A DNA stretch of 64,000 nt from an uncultured Methanosarcinales archaeon. GTDB lineage: Archaea > Nanobdellota > Nanobdellia > Woesearchaeales > JASKKU01. The stretch lies in assembly GCA_964386095.1 (NCBI GenBank), contig CAYLQM010000001.1, positions 4,372 through 68,371 of the forward strand, read 5' to 3'. Below are positions 48,965 to 62,057 of the stretch, in pieces (the first letter of the stretch is position 1; each line of letters opens with the position of its first letter). The notes beneath the pieces are model-generated. The model saw only the letters and a program-made list of their open reading frames with translations, made no database searches and was not told the origin of the DNA. A program made the position numbers and the translations under genes.

Positions 48965-50644
48965 ATGAAACGGGAATTGCCTGATATCATTGAAAAATAT
49001 GCTCTTAAAAATGCCATAGAACATAATGGCAAAGCAAATCCAAAAGCGCTGATTGGGAAAGTGATTGCAGAATTTCCCGAATATAAAACCAAAATTCGCG
49101 AGATAATGCCTTTCATCGAACAAAAGGCATCCGAAATAAATGATTTATCTCTGGAAGAACAGAAGCAGATTGCCCAGGAAAAGCATCCTGAAATATTTGT
49201 GAAAGAGAAAAAGAAGAAGGACCTGCCGGAGTTGCCTAACGCAGTGAAAGGAAAGGTTGTTACAAGGATTCCCCCTGAACCGAGCAAGTACGCTCATATT
49301 GGCCATGCTTTATCCTTTCTCATAAATTACATCTATGCCAGGAGGTACGAAGGCAAGAGTATTCTCAGGTTTGAAGATACCAACCCTGAAAAATCTGCTC
49401 AAGAGTTTGTTGATGCAATGCTAAATGATGTGCAAAATTATTTGGGAATCAAGCCTGATAAGATTATGTTTGCATCGGATGACATGCCCAAGTTTATTGA
49501 AGCAGCTGTTGAATTGATTAAACGTGGAAAGGCTTATGTTTGTTTTTGTGATCAGCAAACAATGAAGGAAAATCGGCAGAAAGGTCTGGAGTGCAGTTGC
49601 CGCAGTAAAAGTGTTGAGAAAAACCTAAAAGATTGGCAAGGAATGACGAATGGAAAATACAGTGCTGGGAAATGCACTTTAAGATTGAAGATTGATATGA
49701 AACATAAAAATTATGTTATGAGAGACCCGGTAATCTTCAGGATAGTCGAGCATGAACATTACAAGCACGGGCAAAAATACCGCGTTTGGCCAATGTATGA
49801 TTTTGAGAATTCTTTAGAGGATGCGTGGAATGGCGTAACTCACATACTTAGGAGCAATGAATTTGGAAAAATGCGCGAGGAATTGCAGAATTATATTAAG
49901 GAATTGTTCGGTTATCCAAAACCTTTTGTTAAACAATACGGCAGATTTAATGTAATGGGTTCAACAACAAAAGGCAGAGAAATAAGAGAATTGATTGAAA
50001 AGGGAGAATTAATTGGATGGGATGATCCAAGATTGGTTACATTAAAAGCTTTGAAACGAAGGGGTATACAACGGGAAGCTCTTTATGAAATGGTTAAAAA
50101 GATCGGATTATCATCGCAAATAACTAACATTGATTGGAATTTCATAAGCGCTTTTAACCGCAGGATTGTTGATAAATGTGCCAAGAGATTTATGTTAATC
50201 AGAAATCCTGTTAAGATTAGAATTAAGGGGGCTGAACCTCACGAAATAAAGATAAGACTTCATCCTGATGTTGATTACGGGTTAAAAACTCTTAAGGTTA
50301 ATGAAGAATTTTACCTCGAGAAAGAAGACTTTGAAAGCATAAGAGACAACGAAGTTGTAAGATTAATGGAATGCTTAAACTTCTATAAAAAGGGCGATGA
50401 ATTTTATTTTCATTCTTACGATTATAATGGATTTAAAGGCAAGGGTAACAAGATTATACATTGGTTGCCTGTTGAGGATTCGCAAGTTTTAAAAGTTAAA
50501 ATAATGATGCCTGATGCAAAAAAGATTGATGCATTATGTGAATTTAATGTTAAAGATGTTAAAGTGGATGAAATCGTTCAATTTGAGAGGTTTGGATTTG
50601 CTCGAAAAGATTCTGAGTTGGAGTTTTGGTATTCGCACAAGTGA
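48965..50644 (+). CDS. gltX: Glutamyl-tRNA synthetase (archaeal/eukaryotic-type class I Glx-RS)
   Basis: HIGH motif HIGHALSF and a Glx-RS catalytic core (RFEDTNPE). 559 aa with an anticodon-binding beta-barrel C-terminus. Confidence 0.85.
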   Translation: MKRELPDIIEKYALKNAIEHNGKANPKALIGKVIAEFPEYKTKIREIMPFIEQKASEINDLSLEEQKQIAQEKHPEIFVKEKKKKDLPELPNAVKGKVVTRIPPEPSKYAHIGHALSFLINYIYARRYEGKSILRFEDTNPEKSAQEFVDAMLNDVQNYLGIKPDKIMFASDDMPKFIEAAVELIKRGKAYVCFCDQQTMKENRQKGLECSCRSKSVEKNLKDWQGMTNGKYSAGKCTLRLKIDMKHKNYVMRDPVIFRIVEHEHYKHGQKYRVWPMYDFENSLEDAWNGVTHILRSNEFGKMREELQNYIKELFGYPKPFVKQYGRFNVMGSTTKGREIRELIEKGELIGWDDPRLVTLKALKRRGIQREALYEMVKKIGLSSQITNIDWNFISAFNRRIVDKCAKRFMLIRNPVKIRIKGAEPHEIKIRLHPDVDYGLKTLKVNEEFYLEKEDFESIRDNEVVRLMECLNFYKKGDEFYFHSYDYNGFKGKGNKIIHWLPVEDSQVLKVKIMMPDAKKIDALCEFNVKDVKVDEIVQFERFGFARKDSELEFWYSHK

Positions 50645-51306
50645 AAATGTTAGCGAAAGTTTTTAAAGAAAATCTAAAGTCAATGCTCTCGGGGATTTTG
50701 CTTGGTTTGTTGGTGTTTATCTTTTTCATTTTATCTTCGTGTAGCCATGCTGATTTCAGTAATGATAATCCTAAACTGTTGAACGGTAAGAGGTGCGTTT
50801 TGATTATTGCTCCAGAAAATTTTAGGGATGAGGAGTTAACAGTCACCAAGGATGTATTAATTGAGAACGGAGCATATGTAGATGTTGCTTCAGTTAAGAA
50901 GGGAGTTGTTAAAGGGATGTTGGGTTACTCAATACAGGTTGATAAAACTGTTTCAGAACTTTCTGTTGATGACTTTGATTGCGTTGTTATTGTTGGAGGT
51001 TCTGGCGCTCCTGTTTTGCTTAAGCATGATGAAGTGCTTGATTTTGTTAAGAGAAGCAATGAGTTAAATAAGACTATCGGCGCGATTTGTTTAGGCCCCA
51101 TGGTTTTGGCAAAGGCAGGAGTTCTTGAAAGCAAAGATGCAACTGTTTTCAAGAGCAAAGAATCTCTTGATGTTTTTAAGGAGAATAATGTTAATTTCGT
51201 TGATAAGCCTTTGGTTGAAATCGGCAACATAATTACTGCAAATGGTCCGGATTATGCAGCAGATTTTGCGTATGCTTTGGTCAGATTGTTGAGCGAGAAT
51301 AATTAA
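50626..51306 (+). CDS. DJ-1/PfpI-family protein with an N-terminal signal/lipobox (start more likely the Met at 50647)
   Basis: Catalytic-Cys context IGAICLGPMVLAKAG. N-terminal hydrophobic region ends in LSSC (lipobox-like). Confidence 0.7.
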   Translation: MVFAQVKMLAKVFKENLKSMLSGILLGLLVFIFFILSSCSHADFSNDNPKLLNGKRCVLIIAPENFRDEELTVTKDVLIENGAYVDVASVKKGVVKGMLGYSIQVDKTVSELSVDDFDCVVIVGGSGAPVLLKHDEVLDFVKRSNELNKTIGAICLGPMVLAKAGVLESKDATVFKSKESLDVFKENNVNFVDKPLVEIGNIITANGPDYAADFAYALVRLLSENN

Positions 51307-51335: not shown

Positions 51336-51653
51336 ATTGAAGATCAGCTTAATTCAAAAGGAAAACAAACACGAAATGTTTGGGCAATTCCACTTACACC
51401 AAAAAAGGAAAAATGGGCAGGAGAACATCCAACTCAAAAACCTGAAGAATTACTTAGGAGAGTTCTATTGGCATGCACTAATCCCGAAGATTTAGTTTTA
51501 GATCCGTTTTTGGGCTCTGGCACAACCTCAGCAGTCGCTATGAAACTAAGAGGAAACTCAATAGGCATTGAAAAAAATAAAAAATATTTGGAAATCATAA
51601 AAATTTGTAAACAAATTTTCTTAATATCTTTGAGGGGAGATGTTATCTCTTAA
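51336..51653 (+). pseudogene. C-terminal remnant of a beta-class N4/N6 DNA methyltransferase (motif I only; catalytic DPPY half absent)
   Basis: Open frame after a stop at 51333 encodes ...NVWAIPL...[58 protein letters not shown]. This is the HPTxKP + DPFxGSGTT + IGIE signature. No ATG is present and the listed start is TTG. Confidence 0.55.
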
Positions 51654-51753: not shown

Positions 51754-51936
51754 ATGATTGGCATAACTGAATTATTGATAATCTTGCTGATAATTTTAAT
51801 TCTTTTTGGGCCAAAGAGACTGCCTGAATTGGCAAGAGCTATAGGAAAATCGGTTCATGAATTCAAAAAGGCTTCGAGGGGAGAATACGCCGAAGATGAA
51901 AAGCCCAAAAAGAGAAACACAAAAAAGAAAAAGTAA
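51754..51936 (+). CDS. tatA: Twin-arginine translocase subunit TatA
   Basis: TM LLIILLIILILFGPKRLPELARAIGKSVHEFKKA matches the TatA/E consensus. Confidence 0.8.
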   Translation: MIGITELLIILLIILILFGPKRLPELARAIGKSVHEFKKASRGEYAEDEKPKKRNTKKKK

Positions 51937-52627
51937 TCTTATCAAGAGACCTCTCGCTGAACACTTGGAAGAGTTCAGATTTAGGATGCTCTTTTCCCTT
52001 TTTTTCTTTATGATAGTTTCACTAGTTTTATTTTTTGTCTCCCCTTATGTTTTAAAAAGAGTAATAAATGATTTCATAAATAATTCCGTGAAAATTGTTT
52101 CTTTAAGTCCAACGGAGGTAATACTGTCGGAAATAAGAATTGCTCTGTTTCTTTCTTTTATTGCATCACTGCCTGTGTTTATTTATCACTTATTCAAGTT
52201 CGTTAAGCCGGCAGTTAAAGATAATGAAAAACCTATGTTTGTTCTGTTCATTCTGTCCAGCCCTTTATTGTTTCTGCTTGGAAGCTGGTTTGCTTACTTT
52301 GTTGTATTGAAGTTTGCAATTGCCTTTTTTTCAAAAATCTCTTTGGTTGTAGTGAATTACAACTTGTGGAGTATTAAGGAATTGACCAAATTCATTCTGA
52401 ATTTTTGCTTCTCTTTTGGGCTCGTGTTTGAATTGCCTCTCATAATGTTCTTTTTAAATGCCTTAGGTTTGTTAAGTAAAGATGACTTTAAAAAATACCG
52501 ACCTTTTATTTATGTGATTATTTTTGTTCTCGCAGCCGTAATTACCCCGCCAGATGTTATCACCCAGTTGATTTTAGCTTTCCCGTTAATAATTCTTTAT
52601 GAGTTGTCCTTGCTTTTTATTAGATGA
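51857..52627 (+). CDS. tatC: Twin-arginine translocase subunit TatC (true start probably an internal Met, e.g. 51896)
   Basis: LAEHLEEFRFRM near the N-terminus and 6 TM helices. The track ORF overlaps tatA by 80 bp in another frame. Confidence 0.75.
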   Translation: MNSKRLRGENTPKMKSPKRETQKRKSNLIKRPLAEHLEEFRFRMLFSLFFFMIVSLVLFFVSPYVLKRVINDFINNSVKIVSLSPTEVILSEIRIALFLSFIASLPVFIYHLFKFVKPAVKDNEKPMFVLFILSSPLLFLLGSWFAYFVVLKFAIAFFSKISLVVVNYNLWSIKELTKFILNFCFSFGLVFELPLIMFFLNALGLLSKDDFKKYRPFIYVIIFVLAAVITPPDVITQLILAFPLIILYELSLLFIR

Positions 52628-52629
52628 TT

Positions 52630-54330
52630 TTATTTTTTATTTTCTGAGAAAACATGAGCCCTGTAAACATACACCTCTGTAGAGGAATCTTTCCAACAAT
52701 AAGGGTTCATGCCGCCTTTTATGCAAAGTTGGGTTAAAAACGATTCCTTATCAGGCAACTGCTCCCATACTTGAGGCAGGTAGGTGCTTTGCCTGAAACC
52801 TCTTTTCAATATTACGCCATGAACATTTGGAATAAGCTTGTTTTTCAAATCTTCGGGAGACGAAAATGTAAGTCTTGTTGGTACTGAGAGTGCAGAGATT
52901 TCTATGGTAATATCTTTTAATTCATCTGTTGAAACAGGGTTAAACCTGGGATCATTCACAGCGGCGTTTATTGCGTTGTCCATAACGCATTTATAGAGTT
53001 CTTCTTGAGGTAATATGTGCCCAATGCAACCTCTCAGCATTCCGTTCTTTTCAAGCGTTACAAAACAACCCATCTTTTGTTTTAATTTGTCAGATACCTG
53101 TGATTTATCTACTTTGGGTCTTCTCCCTGTTGCGAGATAAGTTTCAATGGTTTCACGGGCTAATTTCAGCAAAAATTCTTTTTCTTCAGGCGTTAATTCA
53201 ATAACACTATCTTCCGGGTTAGAGAATGCAATTGCCATGTAGCTCACCGAGTTTGTGAAATCGTTTAAGATGTTGCCAGATGCATCATATTTGATTAAGG
53301 TTGTATTTAATTGTTTGTCTTTTATTATGTTTAAAAGTAGGATTATTGGATTCCTGCCACAGATTGTATCTTGGGTTCTTTGGATGAAATTGTAAAAATT
53401 CAATGCGTCCTTGCTTTTAATACTTTCAAAAGCTTGCAAATCAAGTTTTTTAATGTTTTCCTTAACATTATCTGTAAATGGCAAATAACCATAATTTGCA
53501 CCGTAATGAGTGAAATCCGAGCTAACAACTATCAAACTATCATTATCGATGTATTCGTTTAGGGTTTTTGCAATCTCCTGCAAATCAGCATAACTGTTCA
53601 AGTTTCCAACCAACAAAGGAACGATTTCAAAGTCATTTAAACAGTACTGTAAGAAAGGAAGCTCTATTTCGATAGCATGTTCTTTTGAATGCATTTCAGG
53701 AACAAATGTGAAAAGAGGTTTTTTTAATAATTCTTTAACAATGTTTGAGACTTCAATTTTTCCGAGCGGGGTTCTGTAATGAGTAAAGTTTCCCACAGAA
53801 ATCCCCCGAAAGCTTGCATAATGAGATGGCGCCAAAATGAATACTTTCTGGTAGCTTTTATTGCAAATTGTGTTAAAAGCTGTTGAAGCGGTTTGACCGG
53901 AGAAACGCCAACCAGCATGAGGCACTATTATGGCAAAAATGTTTTCTTTTTTTAGTTTGCTGATTGTATTATTAATTTCTTGGATTTCCTTATTGTTTTT
54001 AAAGAAGGTTTCAATCTCGTTAATTACAGCTTCTTTTGTTCTGGGATACCATGAACCTGAGATTGCTGGTTCTCTTACAATTTCTTTAAACTTCGTTGTT
54101 TGTTTATTTGCCAAACCCGTTTCAGTTTTGTTGCCTAATTTCGTGCGAAATACAAGAATAGCAATAATTATGATTAATATCACAAGGGAAATTTTGAAAA
54201 TCGTTTTAATTTCTATAATTTGTTTTTTGCCTGATGTTTTGCTTTTATTCTTTCTTTTTGTCTTTTTGGCGGGTTTGCGAATTTTTGTCATCCTACCATC
54301 GCCCTGGAATTTCAGTATTGCAATATTCAC
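52630..54330 (-). CDS. Memo-like + AMMECR1 fusion protein with an N-terminal membrane anchor (AmmeMemoRadiSam components A+B fused)
   Basis: Basic N-terminal tail and one TM (ISLVILIIIIAILVF). Memo/UPF0103 motifs (SGSWYP..., IVPHAGWRFSGQTA). C-terminal AMMECR1 domain (MGCFVTLEKNGMLRGCIGHILP...VNDPRF). Confidence 0.75.
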   Translation of the reverse strand: MNIAILKFQGDGRMTKIRKPAKKTKRKNKSKTSGKKQIIEIKTIFKISLVILIIIIAILVFRTKLGNKTETGLANKQTTKFKEIVREPAISGSWYPRTKEAVINEIETFFKNNKEIQEINNTISKLKKENIFAIIVPHAGWRFSGQTASTAFNTICNKSYQKVFILAPSHYASFRGISVGNFTHYRTPLGKIEVSNIVKELLKKPLFTFVPEMHSKEHAIEIELPFLQYCLNDFEIVPLLVGNLNSYADLQEIAKTLNEYIDNDSLIVVSSDFTHYGANYGYLPFTDNVKENIKKLDLQAFESIKSKDALNFYNFIQRTQDTICGRNPIILLLNIIKDKQLNTTLIKYDASGNILNDFTNSVSYMAIAFSNPEDSVIELTPEEKEFLLKLARETIETYLATGRRPKVDKSQVSDKLKQKMGCFVTLEKNGMLRGCIGHILPQEELYKCVMDNAINAAVNDPRFNPVSTDELKDITIEISALSVPTRLTFSSPEDLKNKLIPNVHGVILKRGFRQSTYLPQVWEQLPDKESFLTQLCIKGGMNPYCWKDSSTEVYVYRAHVFSENKK

Positions 54331-55501
54331 ATTTTCCGTTTTTAATATGATTTTGAATTATGAGAAATCCTTTTCGTTCGATCAATAATTTGTTGCAATT
54401 TGGGCAATAAGTATGCTCGCCATCATGACCTGGCACATTTCCAATGTAAACAAATTTTAATCCTTGTTCTAAAGCAATCTTTCTCGCCCGGGTGAGAGTT
54501 TCAACAGGCGTGGGCGGTACATTTTGCAGTTTGTATTCTGGATGAAATCTGGAGAAATGTAAGGGGGTATTTTCAAACCCATTGTCATACAGCCATTTCG
54601 CCATCTTTTTAATCATATCAAGATCGTCAGTCCAATTTGGTATGATTAAATTGGTTATCTCTAACCAAACCCCTTCCTCATTTAACACTTTGAGCGTTCG
54701 TAAAACTGGGTCCAAGGTTCCGCCATTGAGCTTCTGATAGGTGCTGTTGCTAAAACTTTTCAAGTCAATATTGGCGGCGTCAAGAAACTTTGTTAGAGTT
54801 CTCAAAGGTTTTTCATTGATATATCCAGCGCTGATTAATACATTTTTAATCCCTTGTTCTCTTGCGAGTTTAGCAATATCGTAAGTGTATTCATAAAATA
54901 CAATGGGTTCAGAGTAAGTGTAGGCAATTGATGTGCAGTTGTTTTTCGCGGCTTCTTCAACAACTTGTTGTGACGAAAGATTATAGCTTTGCAGGTCTTC
55001 CGGATTTGATTGAGAAATCTCCCAATTCTGACAGTTTAAACATCTAAGATTGCAACCGGCAGTTGCTATTGAAAAGGCTGCGCTTTCAGGATAAAAATGA
55101 AACAACGGTTTTTTTTCAATGGGGTCAATATGCAATGCAACTGGTTTTCCATAAACTAAGGAATATAAGGTATTGTTGTGATTTTCTCTTACTCTGCAGA
55201 TTCCTCTACTGCCTTCCTGAAGAAAACATTCCCTTGGACATAACAAACATTTGACTCCAAAATCATATTTCTCATAAAACATTGCTTCTTTAAGAGAATC
55301 GAGTTTCATTTTGTCACTCTCTTTAGAAGTATTAGTTAAAAGACTATTTAAACTTTTAGAACCCAACAAGGAGTTAAACCCGTAAAGAGCCACGGCTAAA
55401 CTACCCAAACCAAGCACACTCTTTTTTATGAACTCTCTCCTGTCAACTTTTTTGGAGAGGATTTTTGGAATTCTGTTTTTAGATTTTTCTTTTTTGGGCA
55501 T
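54293..55501 (-). CDS. AmmeMemoRadiSam-system radical SAM enzyme with an N-terminal twin-arginine signal peptide
   Basis: CNLRCLNCQNWEIS is a CxxxCxxC radical-SAM motif. KCLLCPRECFLQEGSRGICRVREN is the family-typical N-terminal Cys cluster. The first ~50 aa read DRREFIKKSVLGLGSLAVALYGFNSLLGSKS, i.e. the Tat consensus S/T-R-R-x-F-L-K, then an h-region and an AxA-like site. Confidence 0.8.
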   Translation of the reverse strand: MPKKEKSKNRIPKILSKKVDRREFIKKSVLGLGSLAVALYGFNSLLGSKSLNSLLTNTSKESDKMKLDSLKEAMFYEKYDFGVKCLLCPRECFLQEGSRGICRVRENHNNTLYSLVYGKPVALHIDPIEKKPLFHFYPESAAFSIATAGCNLRCLNCQNWEISQSNPEDLQSYNLSSQQVVEEAAKNNCTSIAYTYSEPIVFYEYTYDIAKLAREQGIKNVLISAGYINEKPLRTLTKFLDAANIDLKSFSNSTYQKLNGGTLDPVLRTLKVLNEEGVWLEITNLIIPNWTDDLDMIKKMAKWLYDNGFENTPLHFSRFHPEYKLQNVPPTPVETLTRARKIALEQGLKFVYIGNVPGHDGEHTYCPNCNKLLIERKGFLIIQNHIKNGKCEYCNTEIPGRW

Positions 55502-55694: not shown

Positions 55695-56447
55695 TTATTT
55701 TGTAAACTTTTTAACAGAGCAGCACCTTTTTAGCATTCTCCAGATTAAACCAACTGGACAAAAATGATTGCACCAAAATCTTGGAATTACCATTGAGAAC
55801 AATACCAATATGCCAATTATAACTGAGCCGAGTTTAACAGAGTAGGATGGCGTTAGGAAAATTCTTGTAATGAATTCGAGTTTCTGGGGGATAATGAGCA
55901 ATGAAAAGAATGCCAGCAGGAAAAATGTAAGAAAGATATAACCCATTGCATTTAAAATTAAACTTATTTTCTTGTTTTTATCAGGATTTATTTGTTTAAT
56001 TTTTAAACTTCTGCCAACAAGGTTTAAACTGTCTTGAACTTTTCCAACAGGGCACAAGTTGGAACACCATGTTCTTGATTCCAAGTTCATTAACACTGCG
56101 CTTGATAAAATGATATTCTGCATTTGGCCAAAAGGGCATTTTGCAGGACAAACCGAACAGAAAACATAAGGCATTTTAAACCTGCATTTAAACAGCGGGG
56201 CGGCAACAACAGGAATTAACAAGAATTGACCGAGGTTTCCGGTTTTATGCTTCAAATTCAATGCCTTTTTTGAAACTTTGAACATAAGAATTCCAAAGAC
56301 AAACAAGAATAGAATGAGGATTGTTAAATAAACACCTCTTTTGTAGAACAATCTGTTGATTGAGGCGTTTTTAAAGAAAAGAAGCAAGAGAATGAAAAAG
56401 AGAAGGTTGTAACTCAAACCCATCCAAAACTTTTTGTTATTAACCAT
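55695..56447 (-). CDS. Cys-rich polytopic membrane protein (3 x CxxxCP-type motifs), possible membrane redox/Fe-S protein
   Basis: CSVCPAKCPFG, CSNLCPVGK and CNHFCPVG between TM helices. 250 aa. Confidence 0.45.
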   Translation of the reverse strand: MVNNKKFWMGLSYNLLFFILLLLFFKNASINRLFYKRGVYLTILILFLFVFGILMFKVSKKALNLKHKTGNLGQFLLIPVVAAPLFKCRFKMPYVFCSVCPAKCPFGQMQNIILSSAVLMNLESRTWCSNLCPVGKVQDSLNLVGRSLKIKQINPDKNKKISLILNAMGYIFLTFFLLAFFSLLIIPQKLEFITRIFLTPSYSVKLGSVIIGILVLFSMVIPRFWCNHFCPVGLIWRMLKRCCSVKKFTK

Positions 56448-56467: not shown

Positions 56468-58642
56468 TTAATTTTTAAACTTAACGAATAAAGTTGTGCA
56501 AAACTTTAATGCTGCCAAGATTAGACTTGTTTGCAATAAACCGAATAATGGGATTAAGATTAACGCTGTGATTATTGCTCCAAACAAGGCTCCCATAAAA
56601 TCCAAGCTGTATAATTCAGCCGAGGTTTTGGACTCGTTTTCAAAACTGATTTTAGCAACTGCGGGGAATTCAAGTCCTATAAGAAAATAAATTATAAACA
56701 AAGAAGACGAGAGAAGCAGTGTGGTTAGTGCTTGGGAATTAATGCTGCTTAATAACTTTATGATTAATGGCAGTAATATTAAAGCAATTGCGATTAAAAG
56801 CTCTGCATTTACGAGTGTTTTATTGTTTAATTTCTTCAGATTTCTGTATGCAAATAAACCGCCTGAAGTCATGCCGAGCAGAGCGGCTGAAATCAGCAAT
56901 CCTAAAGAGTAATACAATGTGCCGGCAATAATCTGAAATGAGAGGACTGCAACAATTTCAATGGCGGAAGCAACTATGCCTGATGAGAAGATAAGCACCC
57001 TTTTTGAATTGTTGCCCACAAACAAGATTAAATATCCTATGAATGAGCTGATAATTAGAAAAAACAAAACCCAGAATTTCAAACTAATCATCTGCAACCA
57101 GTTTAAAGAATAGAGAAAAAAAGCTCTTGGTTTAAAATTAAGATTTGGGGGTGTTTCCATATTTGTTTCTGAATTGAGCTGGGCAATTCTGTCGGGCGTT
57201 AATTGGCCTGTTAGATAGTATTCATTTACAAACAGATTAGAAATGTTTCTTTCTTTAACTTTGTTGATCAGTTGTACCGGCGATGTTGAAACATTGCTGT
57301 TTGAAGCAATAAAATAAACACGAGAACCAGGAATTAATTTTACAAATTTAAAGCAGGGATTTAAAGATTGTTTTATTGTTGAATAAAGCAGTTTTGTTTT
57401 CTCATTTAAGTAATTAGAGTAAACTCCTAAAGGAAATATTACTATGCTTCTGTTATTTGTTCTTTTTTTAAGCAAATGGAAGAATTCCTGCGAATAAAAT
57501 CTGTTGAATTCCAGGCTTGCAGGTTCGGGGAGATTTAATATGATCACATCAAAGGTTTTGTTCGTTTCTTTTAGAAATTGTAAGGCATCTCTTGAAATTG
57601 TTTGAATTTTGTCATTAGGTGTTAAGTTGAAATAAGTGTTTAGGATTTCAGTTAAGGTTTTGTCAGGTTCGATGATATAAACTTCCTTAATATTGTATTT
57701 GAGAACTTCATTAACCAAATCAGGATTGCCGTTCGGGACGGTGAATATTGTTTTAGGATTATCAAGCTGTAGCATAGCATAGTGCACAAGTTCTTCACTG
57801 CTTTGCTTGTCGTTTGATGAATAAATCAATTGACCGTTCTGATAAAGATTGTGTTGATTAATGATTTTAGTTAAAATGTAATTCCCAAACTTTGAGTTTT
57901 TTGTTAAAATTATCTGCTGGCCTGGGAACCCTTTTGACAGCGAAAAAGTTTCCAAATTTAGTCTAAGAAGCAAAATCGTTAAGAGTATTATGAAAGTAAT
58001 TAACAATACCTGTTTTGCTCTTTTTTTCAAATGAATCATTGAAATCATTATGAGATTAAGCGCTAGGGCGATTATAGTAATGGTTGTGTTATTCAACAAA
58101 TAACCCAAGAAAAAAGTAAAAATCAATGCGCCGAATACATTGCCCAAGTTATCAACATAGTAGCTTTTGGAAATTGACTTGTATCTTTGGTTAAGCGCTT
58201 TGGGAATGCAACTTAATAAACAGCCGTACAAAATGCAGAACGGAAACAAAATCAACAATGAAAACAAGAATAAACTTTGCAGGGCAACGAGAGTGCCGAT
58301 GGGGAACAAGAGGTTTCTTAACCATCTGATTGCAATGATTGTTGCTAATGGCAGAATGCCTAATGAAATATGAAAACTTAAAAGTTTCTTATCAGAAATC
58401 TTAAACCTTTTACATAGGTTTGCTCCGATTGAAAGCAAAATTAACCAGCTGACAAAAATGGTGATGTAAGAGAATTCATTGCCGTAAAAAGAATCCATAA
58501 GTTCTTTAATAATCAGAAGTTGCGTTAATGTTGCAGTTAAAGCTATAATGAATAAGGAAAAAATGTATTTCTTGTTTTTGTTTTTAATTAATACATGGTT
58601 TTGTCTTTTTTTTGGTTCCATAACTCGAAAGGTTTGAGACAT
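56468..58642 (-). CDS. Membrane protein with an embedded spermidine-synthase-like (aminopropyl/methyltransferase-fold) domain
   Basis: >12 TM helices flank a soluble segment: KEVYIIEPDKTLTEILNTYF...DKIQTISRDALQFLKETNKTFDVIILNLPEPASLEFNRFYSQEFFHLLKK (SpeE-like). The Gly-rich GGGDGG motif is degenerate (VPNGNPD). Confidence 0.55.
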   Translation of the reverse strand: MSQTFRVMEPKKRQNHVLIKNKNKKYIFSLFIIALTATLTQLLIIKELMDSFYGNEFSYITIFVSWLILLSIGANLCKRFKISDKKLLSFHISLGILPLATIIAIRWLRNLLFPIGTLVALQSLFLFSLLILFPFCILYGCLLSCIPKALNQRYKSISKSYYVDNLGNVFGALIFTFFLGYLLNNTTITIIALALNLIMISMIHLKKRAKQVLLITFIILLTILLLRLNLETFSLSKGFPGQQIILTKNSKFGNYILTKIINQHNLYQNGQLIYSSNDKQSSEELVHYAMLQLDNPKTIFTVPNGNPDLVNEVLKYNIKEVYIIEPDKTLTEILNTYFNLTPNDKIQTISRDALQFLKETNKTFDVIILNLPEPASLEFNRFYSQEFFHLLKKRTNNRSIVIFPLGVYSNYLNEKTKLLYSTIKQSLNPCFKFVKLIPGSRVYFIASNSNVSTSPVQLINKVKERNISNLFVNEYYLTGQLTPDRIAQLNSETNMETPPNLNFKPRAFFLYSLNWLQMISLKFWVLFFLIISSFIGYLILFVGNNSKRVLIFSSGIVASAIEIVAVLSFQIIAGTLYYSLGLLISAALLGMTSGGLFAYRNLKKLNNKTLVNAELLIAIALILLPLIIKLLSSINSQALTTLLLSSSLFIIYFLIGLEFPAVAKISFENESKTSAELYSLDFMGALFGAIITALILIPLFGLLQTSLILAALKFCTTLFVKFKN

Positions 58643-60890: not shown

Positions 60891-62057
60891 TCAAATTTTG
60901 GCCCTTTCTTTTAGGACCTTGGCAAGGTCGGTTTTTTCCCAGGTAAATTCAGGTTCTTCCCTGCCAAAATGACCAAATGCAGCTGTTTTCTTGTAAATTG
61001 GTCTTTTAAGATTTAAATGGGCAATTATACCTTTAGGTGTTAATGGAAACAGGGTTCTAACTAAATAAGCAAGTTTTTGTTCATTGATTTTACCAGTGCC
61101 AAAAGTGTCAATGTAAATCCCTACGGGTTGCGCAATACCAATAGCATAAGCCAACTGAACCTCGCATTTCTCAGCAAGACCCGCTGCAACTATGTTTTTG
61201 GCGATGTATCTTGTCATATAAGCTCCGCTTCTATCAACTTTGCTGGGGTCTTTTCCTGAAAAAGCGCCACCGCCGTGCCTGCCCAAGCCTCCATAGGTGT
61301 CAACAATGATTTTTCTTCCAGTTAAGCCAGTATCAGCAGCAGGACCGCCTAAAACGAACCTACCGGTAGAATTTATATATGTTTGGGTGTCTTCTTTTAA
61401 GTATCTTTTAAGAACGGGTTTGATTACATGGGTTTTTATATCTTCCTGCAATTTTGCGTGCTTTATGTTTTCGTTATGTTGGGTTGCGATAACAACAGTT
61501 TTGACTTTGCAGGGCTTTTCATCAACATATTCCACAGTAACTTGACTTTTGCAGTCTGGTCCTAAATATTTTAAGATTCCTAATTCTCTCACTTCTTTTA
61601 ACTTCTGGGTTAATTTATGAGCCAACATAATAGGTAAAGGCATAAGCTCTTTAGTTTCATTTGTAGCATAACCGAACATCATTCCTTGATCTCCAGCGCC
61701 CTGTTCGTGATTTTCGTTTTCGTCAACTCCGCGAGCAATGTCTGGGCTTTGGGGTTGAACTGAAACGAGAATCCCGCAACTATTGTAATCAAGCCCCCAT
61801 TTAACATCATTATAACCAATTTCTTTTATGGTTTCTCTTGCAACTTTGTCGATATTTACCTGGGCCTTGCTCTTGATTTCGCCCGCAATTATAATGTATC
61901 CTTTGGTTGCCAATGCTTCCACAGCCACTCTTGATTCGGGGTCTTTCTCAAGAAAAGCATCCAGAACTGCATCTGAAATCTGATCACAAACTTTATCAGG
62001 ATGGCCTGCACCAACGCTCTCAGAAGTAATTAACCTTTTCATAAAATCACCTCGCAT
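60891..62057 (-). CDS. metK: S-adenosylmethionine synthetase, bacterial/eukaryotic type
   Basis: [55 protein letters not shown] and DTYGG are MetK hallmarks. Confidence 0.9.

What the first reader, a model, noticed from the sequence alone, without database searches (positions are those of the whole stretch)
52630..54330. Memo and AMMECR1 fused into one protein with an N-terminal signal anchor
In described AmmeMemoRadiSam loci the AMMECR1 (A) and Memo (B) components are separate soluble proteins. Here a single 566-aa ORF has a basic tail plus one TM helix, then a Memo domain (SGSWYP, IVPHAGWRFSGQTA), then an AMMECR1 domain (GCFVTLEKNGMLRGCIGHILP). Positive-inside topology puts both domains outside. 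That is consistent with the Tat leader on the partner radical SAM enzyme encoded immediately upstream, which overlaps by 38 bp. Two independent topogenic signals pointing the same way argue that this system works on the cell surface or pseudo-periplasm.
Basis: partly seen in the sequence, partly recalled or inferred. Interest (0 to 1): 0.6.

Follow-up and report, generated by a model that had tools for sequence, protein, structure and literature searches.

The report
Exported Memo–AMMECR1 radical SAM gene cluster
A DPANN archaeon encodes a membrane-anchored Memo–AMMECR1 fusion beside a radical SAM enzyme with a Tat export leader, and comparison with about 100 related loci indicates this poorly understood enzyme system has a widespread version that appears to work outside the cytoplasmic membrane.

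Summary
One uninterrupted gene on the minus strand (52630–54291) encodes a basic tail, one TM helix, a complete Memo domain and a complete AMMECR1 domain. The true start is most likely the ATG at 54291, giving 553 aa, so the 38-bp overlap comes from taking the longest ORF.

The fusion is not unusual. All 120 best database hits are fused, and 595 further bacterial stretches also matched the fusion. Of 117 full-length close homologues, 104 carry an N-terminal signal anchor or a lipobox-like signal peptide.

The neighbouring radical SAM enzyme has a D-R-R-E-F-I-K-K leader that is conserved in DPANN relatives, with K-R replacing R-R in Bacteroidota. Across 48 loci the two export signals co-occur (p=3.5e-6).

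Three further partners emerged:
- tatA/tatC lie beside the cluster in exactly the 7 of 11 DPANN loci whose radical SAM enzyme has the RR leader.
- A 14-helix MFS transporter carries a spermidine-synthase-like domain predicted to face outward.
- A NapH-like Fer4_5 membrane protein is once found fused to that MFS protein.

Best reading: an extracytoplasmic variant of the AmmeMemoRadiSam system. Its chemistry, SAM supply and electron supply remain unknown, and localisation is inferred, not demonstrated.

The parts
52630..54291 (-). Memo–AMMECR1 fusion gene (AmmeMemoRadiSam B/A), 553 aa from ATG. The longest ORF runs to the GTG at 54330 (566 aa).
   Evidence: Start supported by orthologous loci.
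54205..54291 (-). Basic N-terminal tail, residues 1-29, with 13 K/R and 1 D/E. Predicted cytoplasmic and disordered.
54148..54204 (-). Single transmembrane helix or signal anchor, residues 30-48: TIFKISLVILIIIIAILVF.
   Evidence: hydropathy 3.04. (model helix 24-51). Family-wide charge bias.
53233..54072 (-). Memo domain (PF01875 / TIGR04336). The PHAG, PSH, EH..E, SSDF.H and ICGR motifs line up with human MEMO1.
52648..53169 (-). AMMECR1 domain (PF01871 / TIGR04335) with the LRGCIGH motif.
54293..55501 (-). AmmeMemoRadiSam radical SAM enzyme (TIGR04337), 402 aa, with radical SAM motif CNLRCLNC.
55358..55501 (-). Tat-type leader of the radical SAM enzyme, residues 1-48. The twin-arginine motif D20-R-R-E-F-I-K-K27 lies at 55421-55444 and is followed by SVLGLGSLAVALYGF.
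   Evidence: It is the only one of 55 ORFs of at least 120 aa in the window with such a motif.
55695..56447 (-). NapH-like Fer4_5 membrane protein, 250 aa, with 4 predicted TM helices and CxxxCP cysteine motifs in basic, probably cytoplasmic, segments.
   Evidence: Fused to the MFS–SpeE-like protein in P0244/L101.
56468..58642 (-). 14-helix MFS-fold membrane protein (724 aa) with a spermidine-synthase-like domain inserted between TM7 and TM8. That domain (residues about 243-500, nt 57143-57916) is predicted to face outward.
   Evidence: Co-occurrence.
51754..51936 (+). tatA (PF02416, E 1.6e-22).
51857..52627 (+). tatC (PF00902, E 1.3e-54). It is convergent with the fusion gene and ends 2 nt from it. 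Its real start is probably downstream of 51857.
   Evidence: Conserved position in L084, L085, L098, L099, L100 and L102.

Best explanation
This is the DPANN (Woesearchaeota-like) copy of a widespread extracytoplasmic variant of the AmmeMemoRadiSam system.

**Shown**
- The Memo–AMMECR1 fusion is one intact gene.
- It begins with a basic tail and one TM helix.
- The adjacent radical SAM enzyme has a twin-arginine-type leader.
- Export signals on the two proteins co-occur across Archaea and Bacteria.
- In DPANN loci the cluster also holds tatA/tatC, an MFS-fold protein with a spermidine-synthase-like domain, and usually a NapH-like Fer4_5 protein.

**Inferred**
- The radical SAM enzyme folds and receives its Fe-S clusters in the cytoplasm, then crosses the membrane through the neighbouring TatAC. 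It may stay tethered by its unusually conserved leader.
- The fusion protein is inserted N-in/C-out, so both Memo and AMMECR1 sit on the outer face.
- The MFS partner displays its SAM/dcSAM-type Rossmann domain on the same side.
- The three act together on a membrane-embedded or surface substrate, with a lipid or isoprenoid the leading guess.

**More speculative**
- The Fer4_5 protein may feed electrons to the exported Fe-S enzyme, as NapH does for Tat-exported NapG.
- The MFS moiety may export either SAM/dcSAM or the acceptor molecule.

The reaction catalysed is unknown.
For: **Domains and fold**
- HMM assignments.
- Structure model and fold matches.

**The fusion is the norm**
- All 120 top hits carry both PF01871 and PF01875.
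- 595 confirmed stretches in bacterial genomes each match query residues about 72-550.

**Signals on the fusion protein**
- 104 of 117 homologues have a hydrophobic N-terminus, 23 of them lipobox-like.
- Flank charge is +4.8 (N side) against +0.2 (C side).

**Leader on the radical SAM enzyme**
- SRREFLKY-type leaders occur in DPANN homologues and (S/T)KR(E/D/Q)F(I/L)K in Bacteroidota.
- It is the only such motif among 55 long ORFs in the window.

**Co-occurrence**
- Fusion signal against radical SAM leader: 28/5/2/13, p=3.5e-6.
- The MFS–SpeE-like gene is present in 21 of 30 leader loci against 1 of 18 leaderless loci, p=1.3e-5.
- The control false-positive rate for the Tat-like flag is 7.8%.

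**DPANN synteny**
- tatC/tatA are adjacent in all 7 loci with an RR-leader enzyme and in none of the other 4.

**Gene fusion linking two partners**
- P0244 is MFS–SpeE-like plus Fer4_5, followed 5 nt later by a radical SAM gene with an RR leader.

**Topology of the MFS partner**
- Model pLDDT 89.9 with 7 helices, then the domain, then 7 helices.
- Loop charges alternate across 41 homologues, placing the domain outside.
Against: - No experiment and no dedicated topology predictor was available. All signal calls come from my own hydropathy and motif heuristics.
- The Tat-signal model TIGR01409 scores 12.9 bits, below its 16.7 cut-off.
- The C-terminal flank of the window's TM helix is itself fairly basic: 7 K/R in 25 residues.
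- Radical SAM enzymes need SAM and a low-potential electron. No source of either outside the membrane is established.
- Five loci pair a signal-bearing fusion with an apparently leaderless radical SAM enzyme. One is the closest named relative, L083, which also lacks tatC, Fer4_5 and the MFS–SpeE-like gene at that locus.
- The Fer4_5 cysteine motifs are predicted cytoplasmic, so a path for electrons across the membrane is not evident.
- The window's SpeE-like domain has degenerate motifs, PNGNP and NLPEP.
Confidence: 0.7

Rival explanations
1. The system works on the cytoplasmic face of the membrane. The TM helix of the fusion only tethers it there (N-out/C-in, or a re-entrant helix). The RR-containing segment of the radical SAM enzyme is a membrane-association or partner-docking peptide rather than a working export signal. 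SAM and reductant would then be available as usual.
For: - Every characterised radical SAM enzyme I know of is cytoplasmic (own knowledge), and a phrase search for exported or periplasmic radical SAM enzymes found nothing.
- TIGR01409 scores below its cut-off.
- The C-terminal flank of the TM helix is basic.
- L083 has a leaderless radical SAM enzyme beside an anchored fusion.
- DPANN leaders are conserved far beyond the RR motif, which is unusual for a cleaved signal.
Against: - 23 close homologues, and many bacterial ones, replace the anchor with a short lipobox-type or cleavable signal peptide, which only makes sense for export.
- Flank charge bias across the family is N +4.8 against C +0.2.
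- Some bacterial radical SAM orthologues carry Sec-type signal peptides instead of RR leaders (L017, L024, L033, L063).
- tatA/tatC adjacency coincides exactly with the RR leader in DPANN loci.
- The third partner's soluble domain is also predicted to face outward.
Confidence: 0.17
2. The fusion is an assembly or frameshift artefact joining two genes, or a decaying pseudogene.
For: None found.
Against: - The reading frame is continuous with full-length matches to both HMMs.
- The identical protein occurs in ENA, Logan and NCBI records.
- 2035 homologues passed E <= 1e-5, and all 120 listed carry both domains.
- The model is confident (pLDDT 90) with a helical inter-domain linker.
- Residues invariant across the family are intact.
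Confidence: 0.01
3. The export signals are real, but the neighbouring genes (MFS–SpeE-like, Fer4_5, tatAC) are bystanders. Their adjacency reflects clustering of envelope genes in small DPANN genomes, and the exported system is only the radical SAM enzyme plus the fusion.
For: - Fer4_5 was detected in only 5 locus families plus 2 weak cases.
- tatC is never adjacent in the 80 bacterial loci.
- 9 of 30 leader loci lack an MFS–SpeE-like gene within 10 kb.
- The window's SpeE-like motifs are degenerate.
Against: - The MFS–SpeE-like gene tracks the leader-bearing variant across phyla from DPANN to Bacteroidota, Acidobacteriota, Omnitrophota and Planctomycetota: 21 of 30 against 1 of 18, p=1.3e-5.
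- A natural MFS–SpeE-like/Fer4_5 fusion sits 5 nt upstream of an RR-leader radical SAM gene.
- tatAC adjacency is 7 of 7 in RR-leader DPANN loci against 0 of 4 in the others.
Confidence: 0.12

Closest known systems
Canonical AmmeMemoRadiSam system (NCBIfam TIGR04335 protein A, TIGR04336 protein B, TIGR04337 radical SAM enzyme)
   Same: All three family models are matched well above their curated cut-offs, and the genes are adjacent. Motifs invariant across the family and shared with human MEMO1 and archaeal AMMECR1 structures are kept.
   Different: - A and B are one polypeptide here, in the order B then A.
- The fusion has a signal anchor and the radical SAM enzyme has a twin-arginine-type leader about 79 residues long that lies outside the TIGR04337 model.
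- The cluster adds tatAC, an MFS–SpeE-like protein and a Fer4_5 protein.
- The function of the canonical system is itself unknown.
NapG–NapH quinol dehydrogenase module of periplasmic nitrate reductase
   Same: Both pair a Tat-exported Fe-S protein with a four-helix membrane protein of the Fer4_5/NapH type. The window protein hits PF12801 at 41 bits (cut-off 22) and weakly hits NapH models.
   Different: - The NapH equivalog score is 39.6 against a cut-off of 234, so this is not NapH.
- The exported partner is a radical SAM enzyme, not a ferredoxin.
- No quinone link was shown.
- The analogy concerns mechanism only and is an inference.
Pyruvate formate-lyase activating enzyme family, the closest characterised radical SAM enzymes
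   Same: Shares the radical SAM core and CX3CX2C motif. TIGR02493 PFLA is the next-best NCBIfam hit after TIGR04337.
   Different: PFLA scores 60.8 bits against a cut-off of 231.75. PFL activases are cytoplasmic (own knowledge) and their model does not include an N-terminal leader.
Human MEMO1 (PDB 7kq8, 3bcz) and archaeal AMMECR1-like proteins (PDB 1zq7, 1vaj)
   Same: Fold matches: TM-score 0.87 and 30% identity to MEMO1; E about 1e-20 and 38-41% identity to 1zq7 and 1vaj.
   Different: Those are separate soluble single-domain proteins. Here the two domains are fused and membrane-anchored.
Fused MFS/spermidine synthase (NCBIfam NF037959), membrane-anchored aminopropyltransferases (PRK03612) and 14-TM MFS transporters such as QacA
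   Same: - NF037959 is matched just above its cut-off, 43.8 against 40 bits.
- The arrangement is 7 helices, then the domain, then 7 helices.
   Different: - The family linked to this system lacks the acidic residue of the GGG(D/E)G loop. By my own knowledge of SpeE structures, that residue excludes SAM in true spermidine synthases.
- The window copy also lacks the DLPDP aspartates.
- The domain is predicted to be extracytoplasmic.
- No activity is known.

Membership tests
AmmeMemoRadiSam system protein B / Memo (TIGR04336, PF01875) | Family HMM score above the curated cut-off over the full model | tested here: met
   TIGR04336 scores 224.3 bits (cut-off 26), model 1-270 of 270. PF01875 has E 2.4e-59.
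AmmeMemoRadiSam system protein B / Memo (TIGR04336, PF01875) | Conserved His/Asp/Cys active-site-pocket motifs of Memo (PHAG, PSH, SSDF.H, ICGR) | tested here: met
   The motifs align with human MEMO1 7kq8. H125, H157, H205, D259 and H262 are invariant in 36 homologues. That these residues bind metal rests on my own knowledge of MEMO1.
AmmeMemoRadiSam system protein A / AMMECR1 (TIGR04335, PF01871) | Family HMM score above cut-off, LRGCIG motif and AMMECR1 fold | tested here: met
   TIGR04335 scores 210 bits (cut-off 99). R420, G421 and G424 of the LRGCIG motif are invariant and C422 and I423 nearly invariant. Foldseek hits 1zq7 and 1vaj at E about 1e-20.
AmmeMemoRadiSam radical SAM enzyme (TIGR04337) | Family HMM score above cut-off, CX3CX2C motif and adjacency to A/B genes | tested here: met
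   390.1 bits (cut-off 220). CNLRCLNC is present. The stop codon lies 1 nt before the start of the fusion gene.
Twin-arginine (Tat) signal peptide | Consensus motif (S/T)-R-R-x-F-L-K followed by a moderately hydrophobic stretch near the N-terminus | tested here: met
   D-R-R-E-F-I-K-K at residues 20-27 is followed by SVLGLGSLAVALYGF, with best 12-residue hydropathy 2.07. The motif is conserved in DPANN homologues.
Twin-arginine (Tat) signal peptide | Curated Tat-signal HMM (TIGR01409) above its cut-off | tested here: inconclusive
   12.9 bits against a cut-off of 16.7, E 0.11. It matches the correct residues (19-39) but falls below threshold.
Twin-arginine (Tat) signal peptide | Tat translocase encoded in the genome | tested here: met
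   tatA (E 1.6e-22) and tatC (E 1.3e-54) lie next to the cluster.
Twin-arginine (Tat) signal peptide | Export depends on TatC and on the RR pair | not testable with these tools
   Needs genetics or biochemistry.
Type II signal anchor (N-in/C-out) on the fusion protein | One hydrophobic helix of about 19 residues with net positive charge on the N-terminal side | tested here: met
   Hydropathy 3.04. The N flank has 13 K/R and 1 D/E, the C flank 7 K/R and 2 D/E. Family means are +4.8 against +0.2, with N greater than C in 71 of 81. 23 homologues have lipobox-like signal peptides instead.
Type II signal anchor (N-in/C-out) on the fusion protein | Call by a trained topology predictor (DeepTMHMM, SignalP 6) | not testable with these tools
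   No such tool was available. Only hydropathy and charge heuristics were used.
Spermidine synthase / aminopropyltransferase (PF01564; equivalogs PRK00811, TIGR00417) | GGG(D/E)G dcSAM loop, catalytic D-x-x-D-P aspartates, and an equivalog-level score | tested here: not met
Fused MFS/spermidine synthase (NF037959) | Subfamily HMM above cut-off, with an MFS fold plus a SpeE fold in one chain | tested here: met
NapH (NF007013 / TIGR02163) | Equivalog score above cut-off | tested here: not met
   39.6 against 234 and 35.5 against 213. Only the generic Fer4_5 domain (PF12801, 41.3 against 22) is met.

The most novel reading that the evidence does not exclude
A complete radical SAM enzyme system operates outside the cytoplasmic membrane. 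The Fe-S/SAM enzyme is exported folded by Tat. It works with a surface-anchored Memo–AMMECR1 fusion and an outward-facing SAM-type Rossmann domain. The MFS moiety of that partner exports SAM/dcSAM or the acceptor, and a NapH-like protein delivers electrons. As far as I could find, this would be the first extracytoplasmic radical SAM chemistry. It would place the long-unknown activity of Memo and AMMECR1 on a membrane lipid or surface substrate.
Probability: 0.4. Interest if true: 0.85.

Novelty: new variant of a known kind. Interest (0 to 1): 0.62.

Why it matters
- **Unknown biochemistry with disease links.** Memo and AMMECR1 are conserved from archaea to humans and are linked to human disease, yet their biochemistry is unknown. 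The prokaryotic three-gene AmmeMemoRadiSam system is the main clue to it.
- **A narrower substrate search.** A large, phylogenetically broad branch of the system carries coordinated export signals and recruits a membrane transporter–enzyme fusion. That points the search towards membrane or surface molecules.
- **A biochemical puzzle.** Radical SAM enzymes are thought to depend on cytoplasmic SAM and low-potential reductants. A Tat-exported one would call for a new supply route for both.
- **Tractable test organisms.** The same cluster occurs in Bacteroidota, Verrucomicrobiota and Acidobacteriota-type genomes, so the hypothesis can be tested outside uncultured DPANN archaea.
- **DPANN biology.** tatAC sits beside this cluster, and the radical SAM enzyme is the only ORF in this 64-kb window with a Tat-like motif. 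This system may therefore be a principal Tat client in these reduced genomes.

Tried and rejected
- **Frameshift or assembly artefact.** Rejected.
- **GTG start with 38-bp overlap.** Judged unlikely. An ATG lies 1 nt after the radical SAM stop, and four orthologous loci start at the same relative position.
- **'The fusion is unique'.** Rejected.
- **Genome-contig scan.** It was useful for breadth but not for DPANN synteny.
- **Metagenome-contig scan.** With the single protein it gave only 10 loci, mostly short. DPANN contexts had to come from 12 exact-protein look-ups.
- **Literature.**
  - 'AmmeMemoRadiSam' occurs in 6 papers, each mentioning it once and none in its title or abstract.
  - One paper mentions the Memo–AMMECR1 radical SAM clade in passing.
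  - Phrase searches for exported or periplasmic radical SAM enzymes found nothing.
  - A five-term search for a fused MFS/spermidine synthase found nothing.
  - The key comparative paper, Burroughs et al. 2019 (J Biol Chem 294:10211), is not held. I could not check whether it already notes signal peptides or the MFS–SpeE-like neighbour.
- **Tat-signal HMMs.** TIGR01409 was sub-threshold and Pfam gave no hit on the leader.
- **BLAST for NapH-like neighbours.** It found 1 of 80 bacterial loci. A small custom HMM recovered that locus strongly plus two weak bacterial cases.
- **The search of protein representatives.** Not used, because a top-150 list would not have added.
Full report
**1. The observation**

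- Pfam finds a complete Memo domain (residues 87-366, E 2.4e-59) followed by a complete AMMECR1 domain (388-561, E 1.2e-51).
- NCBIfam assigns the two halves to AmmeMemoRadiSam protein B (TIGR04336, 224 bits, cut-off 26) and protein A (TIGR04335, 210 bits, cut-off 99).
- The gene immediately upstream (54293..55501, minus strand) is the system's radical SAM enzyme (TIGR04337, 390 bits, cut-off 220).

The fusion is not a frameshift artefact.
- The frame is continuous.
- The identical protein is on record in ENA, Logan and NCBI.
- An AlphaFold model built on 36 homologues has mean pLDDT 90. It shows a disordered tail, a helix at residues 24-51, a disordered spacer, the Memo fold, a helical linker and the AMMECR1 fold.
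- The two folds match human MEMO1 (TM-score 0.87) and the archaeal AMMECR1-like structures 1zq7 and 1vaj.
- The motifs shared with MEMO1, and the LRGCIGH motif, are intact.

One detail needs correcting. The radical SAM stop codon is at 54295-54293, and codon 14 of the ORF is an ATG at 54291. In orthologous loci the fusion gene starts 1-2 nt after the radical SAM stop or overlaps it by 4 nt. The protein is therefore most likely 553 aa, and the 38-bp overlap comes from taking the longest ORF. All residue numbers below use the 553-aa form.

**2. The N-termini**

- The fusion protein starts with 29 residues holding 13 K/R and 1 D/E.
- Next comes TIFKISLVILIIIIAILVF, with mean hydropathy 3.04.
- The next 25 residues hold 7 K/R and 2 D/E.
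- The charge bias therefore favours N-in/C-out, but from this sequence alone it is not overwhelming.

The radical SAM enzyme starts MPKKEKSKNRIPKILSKKVDRREFIKKSVLGLGSLAVALYGF.
- This is a close match to the twin-arginine consensus, followed by a glycine/serine/alanine-rich stretch of only moderate hydrophobicity.
- Among 55 ORFs of at least 120 aa in the window, it is the only one with such a motif.
- The curated Tat-signal HMM TIGR01409 matches the correct residues but scores 12.9 bits against a cut-off of 16.7. This one test is inconclusive.

**3. The fusion and its signal are the rule in this clade**

- A search of about 5.8 billion proteins gave 2035 hits at E <= 1e-5. All 120 listed carry both Pfam domains.
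- Named sources are Woesearchaeota, Nanoarchaeota, Aenigmarchaeota, Nanohalarchaeota and Altiarchaeales, plus single records labelled Euryarchaeota, Patescibacteria and Thermodesulfobacteriota.
- JGI already labels several of them 'system protein B/system protein A'.
- Of 117 full-length hits, 104 have a hydrophobic N-terminal segment.
  - 81 are signal-anchor-like, with mean net charge +4.8 on the N flank against +0.2 on the C flank. N exceeds C in 71 of 81.
  - 23 have a short signal peptide ending in a lipobox-like L-x-G-C, for example MKKILIILLLMVLLGC.
  - 9 start directly at the Memo domain.
The 80 loci it returned are all bacterial: Planctomycetota, Verrucomicrobiota including an Akkermansia muciniphila MAG, Bacteroidales, Omnitrophota, Acidobacteriota, Desulfobacterota-type lineages, Melainabacteria and Proteobacteria. 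Each carries one ORF spanning both domains.

**4. The radical SAM leader is also clade-wide**

- Among the 120 best homologues of the enzyme, those of about 400 aa carry K-(I/L)-(S/T)-R-R-(E/D)-F-(L/I)-K followed by G-L-G-G-L-A-type stretches. The named ones are Woesearchaeota or Nanoarchaeota.
- The more numerous 375-391-aa homologues, whose named members are all Bacteroidota (57-63% identity), carry (S/T)-K-R-(E/D/Q)-F-(I/L/V)-K at the same position.
- The TIGR04337 model begins only at residue 80 of the window protein, so the leader is an addition to the family core.

**5. The two signals go together**

I called ORFs in all fetched loci and classified the N-termini with a hydropathy and motif heuristic. 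Forty-eight non-redundant loci had a radical SAM gene next to a fused B/A gene.

| Fusion signal | Radical SAM leader | Loci |
|---|---|---|
| yes | yes (RR, KR or, in a few Omnitrophota/Planctomycetota, Sec-like) | 28 |
| no | no | 13 |
| yes | no | 5 |
| no | yes | 2 (probably non-ATG starts) |

- Fisher p = 3.5e-6.
- As a control, the same heuristic flags 7.8% of 537 unrelated long ORFs as Tat-like and 21% as signal or TM.

**6. Additional partners**

- **tatA and tatC.**
  - tatA (51754-51936) and tatC (51857-52627) are convergent with the fusion gene and end 2 nt from it.
  - In 11 non-redundant DPANN loci, tatC/tatA lie within about 3 kb in all 7 whose radical SAM enzyme has an RR leader: the window, L084, L085, L098, L099, L100 and L102.
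  - They are absent from the other 4. L083 has a leaderless enzyme, L097 has no enzyme nearby, and L086 and L103 have a signal-less fusion beside Diphthami_syn_2 and ProRS.
- **A 724-aa membrane protein (56468-58642).** It sits upstream in the same orientation.
  - It is annotated only as Spermine_synth, or as NF037959 'fused MFS/spermidine synthase'.
  - A full-length homologue lies within 10 kb in 21 of 30 leader-bearing loci against 1 of 18 leaderless loci (p = 1.3e-5), from DPANN to Bacteroidota and Acidobacteriota.
  - Its model has pLDDT 89.9 and pTM 0.89. It shows seven TM helices, a SpeE-fold domain, then seven more helices.
  - Loop charges averaged over 41 homologues alternate cleanly. 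They run +0.7, -1.1, +2.5, +0.2, 0.05, 0.05, +2.3, +0.1 before the domain. After it they run +2.0, +0.2, +3.2, +0.7, +1.0, 0.02, +1.7.
  - This gives N-in, C-in and the SpeE-like domain outside. That matches the position of the extra TM7-TM8 hairpin in 14-helix MFS proteins (the last point is my own knowledge).
  - The associated family keeps V-E-L-D-P, D-(G/A)-R and usually D-L-P-D-P, but lacks the acidic residue of GGG(D/E)G.
  - The window copy is more degenerate, with PNGNP and NLPEP. It is SpeE-like in fold but fails the tests for a true spermidine synthase.
- **A 250-aa Fer4_5 protein (55695-56447).** It lies between the MFS–SpeE-like gene and the radical SAM gene.
  - It has four predicted TM helices and CxxxCP motifs in basic, probably cytoplasmic, segments.
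  - It is NapH-like, but far below the NapH equivalog cut-offs.
  - A custom HMM finds it in L084, L085, L098 and the Omnitrophota locus L063, and weakly in two Acidobacteriota loci.
  - In L099 and L100 a small two-helix histidine-rich protein takes its place.
  - One database protein (P0244, 995 aa) is a natural fusion of the MFS–SpeE-like protein with Fer4_5. It is followed 5 nt later by a radical SAM gene with an N-R-R-K-F-V-K leader.

**7. How it most likely works**

Shown:
- the gene content;
- the export-type N-termini and their co-variation;
- the tatAC adjacency;
- the fold assignments.

Inferred:
- The radical SAM enzyme is loaded with Fe-S clusters in the cytoplasm and exported folded by TatAC.
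- The Memo–AMMECR1 fusion is inserted with both domains outside.
- The MFS partner presents a SAM/dcSAM-type Rossmann domain on the same face.

A membrane-embedded or surface substrate is then the natural target.
- A lipid or isoprenoid is the leading guess.
- One locus (L085) has LplT/Aas-like lipid-recycling genes inserted within the cluster.
- From memory of its abstract, which I could not check here, Burroughs et al. 2019 also proposed an isoprenoid link for Memo systems.

Speculative:
- Fer4_5 may relay electrons to the exported enzyme, by analogy with NapH and Tat-exported NapG.
- The MFS moiety may export SAM/dcSAM or the acceptor.
- Alternatively, SAM may be carried out already bound to the enzyme.

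I put 0.7 on the extracytoplasmic-variant reading as a whole and much less on any particular supply route.

**8. What argues against it**

- No experiment or trained predictor was available.
- TIGR01409 is sub-threshold.
- No extracytoplasmic source of SAM or of a low-potential electron is established.
- The Fer4_5 cysteine motifs look cytoplasmic.
- Five loci pair an anchored fusion with an apparently leaderless enzyme. One is L083, the closest named relative (67% identity). There, a stretch comprising the MFS–SpeE-like gene, Fer4_5 and the leader itself is missing relative to the window, and tatC is not adjacent.
- The DPANN leaders are conserved well beyond the RR motif. This may mean they are retained as anchors or docking peptides.

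The main rival, a membrane-tethered but cytoplasm-facing system, keeps about 0.17.

**9. Comparison with what is known, and novelty**

- By every membership test I could run, the three core proteins belong to the AmmeMemoRadiSam families. The system itself is known but uncharacterised.
- The fusion is already visible in public annotation.
- I could not find the following described anywhere in the searchable literature:
  - the coordinated export signals;
  - the link to tatAC;
  - the specific association with an outward-facing MFS–SpeE-like protein and a Fer4_5 protein.
This novelty claim is therefore provisional.
- I classify the finding as a new variant of a known kind. The window's copy is an ordinary member of that variant rather than a one-off.

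**10. Verdict**

- Observation: confirmed.
- Topological interpretation: supported and generalised.
- Rarity claim and overlap: corrected.
- Interest is moderate to high. A Tat-exported radical SAM enzyme would surprise specialists, and the extended cluster makes the unknown function of Memo and AMMECR1 more testable.
- Everything about localisation and mechanism remains inference from sequence.

Noticed in passing
window 50626-51306 (+): A DJ-1/PfpI family protein (E 4e-41) has an N-terminal hydrophobic segment ending in the lipobox-like ILSSC. A DJ-1/PfpI gene also lies beside the cluster in L083 and next to tatA/tatC in L102. It is possibly another exported protein.
   Followed up: partly
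window 51468-51653 (+): A 61-aa ORF containing DPFLGSGTT looks like the C-terminal remnant of an N6/N4 DNA methyltransferase. It lies stranded between the DJ-1 gene and tatA.
   Followed up: no
window 51754-51936 and 51857-52627 (+): tatA has a clear Pfam hit but was not called in the public record of this contig (L081). The longest tatC ORF overlaps tatA by 80 nt, so the real tatC start is probably further downstream.
   Followed up: partly
window 54293-55501 (-); P0124-P0240: The radical SAM enzyme's nearest non-DPANN relatives are Bacteroidota proteins at 57-63% identity. Their leader is homologous but has K-R in place of R-R. This suggests transfer of the exported variant between the two domains of life.
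   Followed up: partly
L099 6590-6835 and L100 6605-6871: In two DPANN loci the Fer4_5 gene is replaced by an 81-88-aa protein with two TM helices and conserved histidines. It has a weak, sub-threshold hit to cytochrome b561 (PF01292, E 0.0035). It may be an alternative membrane electron carrier.
   Followed up: partly
L085 3833-7832: An MFS transporter, a phosphopantetheinyl transferase and an AMP-binding/PP-binding/acyltransferase protein are inserted between the radical SAM and fusion genes. These resemble the LplT/Aas lysophospholipid-recycling pair and hint at a lipid substrate.
   Followed up: no
window about 60891-62057 (-), from L081 2274-3440: A bacterial-type SAM synthetase (MetK; PF00438/PF02772/PF02773) lies 2.2 kb upstream of the MFS–SpeE-like gene, and also in the related locus L083. 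This may be coincidental, but it is notable next to a SAM-dependent cluster.
   Followed up: no
L086 and L103: Woesearchaeota also encode a signal-less Memo–AMMECR1 fusion (starting MKKIREPV) in a different conserved context. It sits next to a Diphthami_syn_2 family gene and ProRS, with no radical SAM, tat or MFS–SpeE-like gene in the sequence available (8 kb either side in L103; L086 ends 212 nt upstream). The same lineage therefore appears to have cytoplasmic and exported forms.
   Followed up: partly
L083 6954-8047: In the closest named relative, the radical SAM gene starts 83 nt after a dCMP deaminase gene and lacks the leader. The MFS–SpeE-like and Fer4_5 genes present at this position in the window are missing. 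This looks like a deletion that removed them together with the leader.
   Followed up: partly
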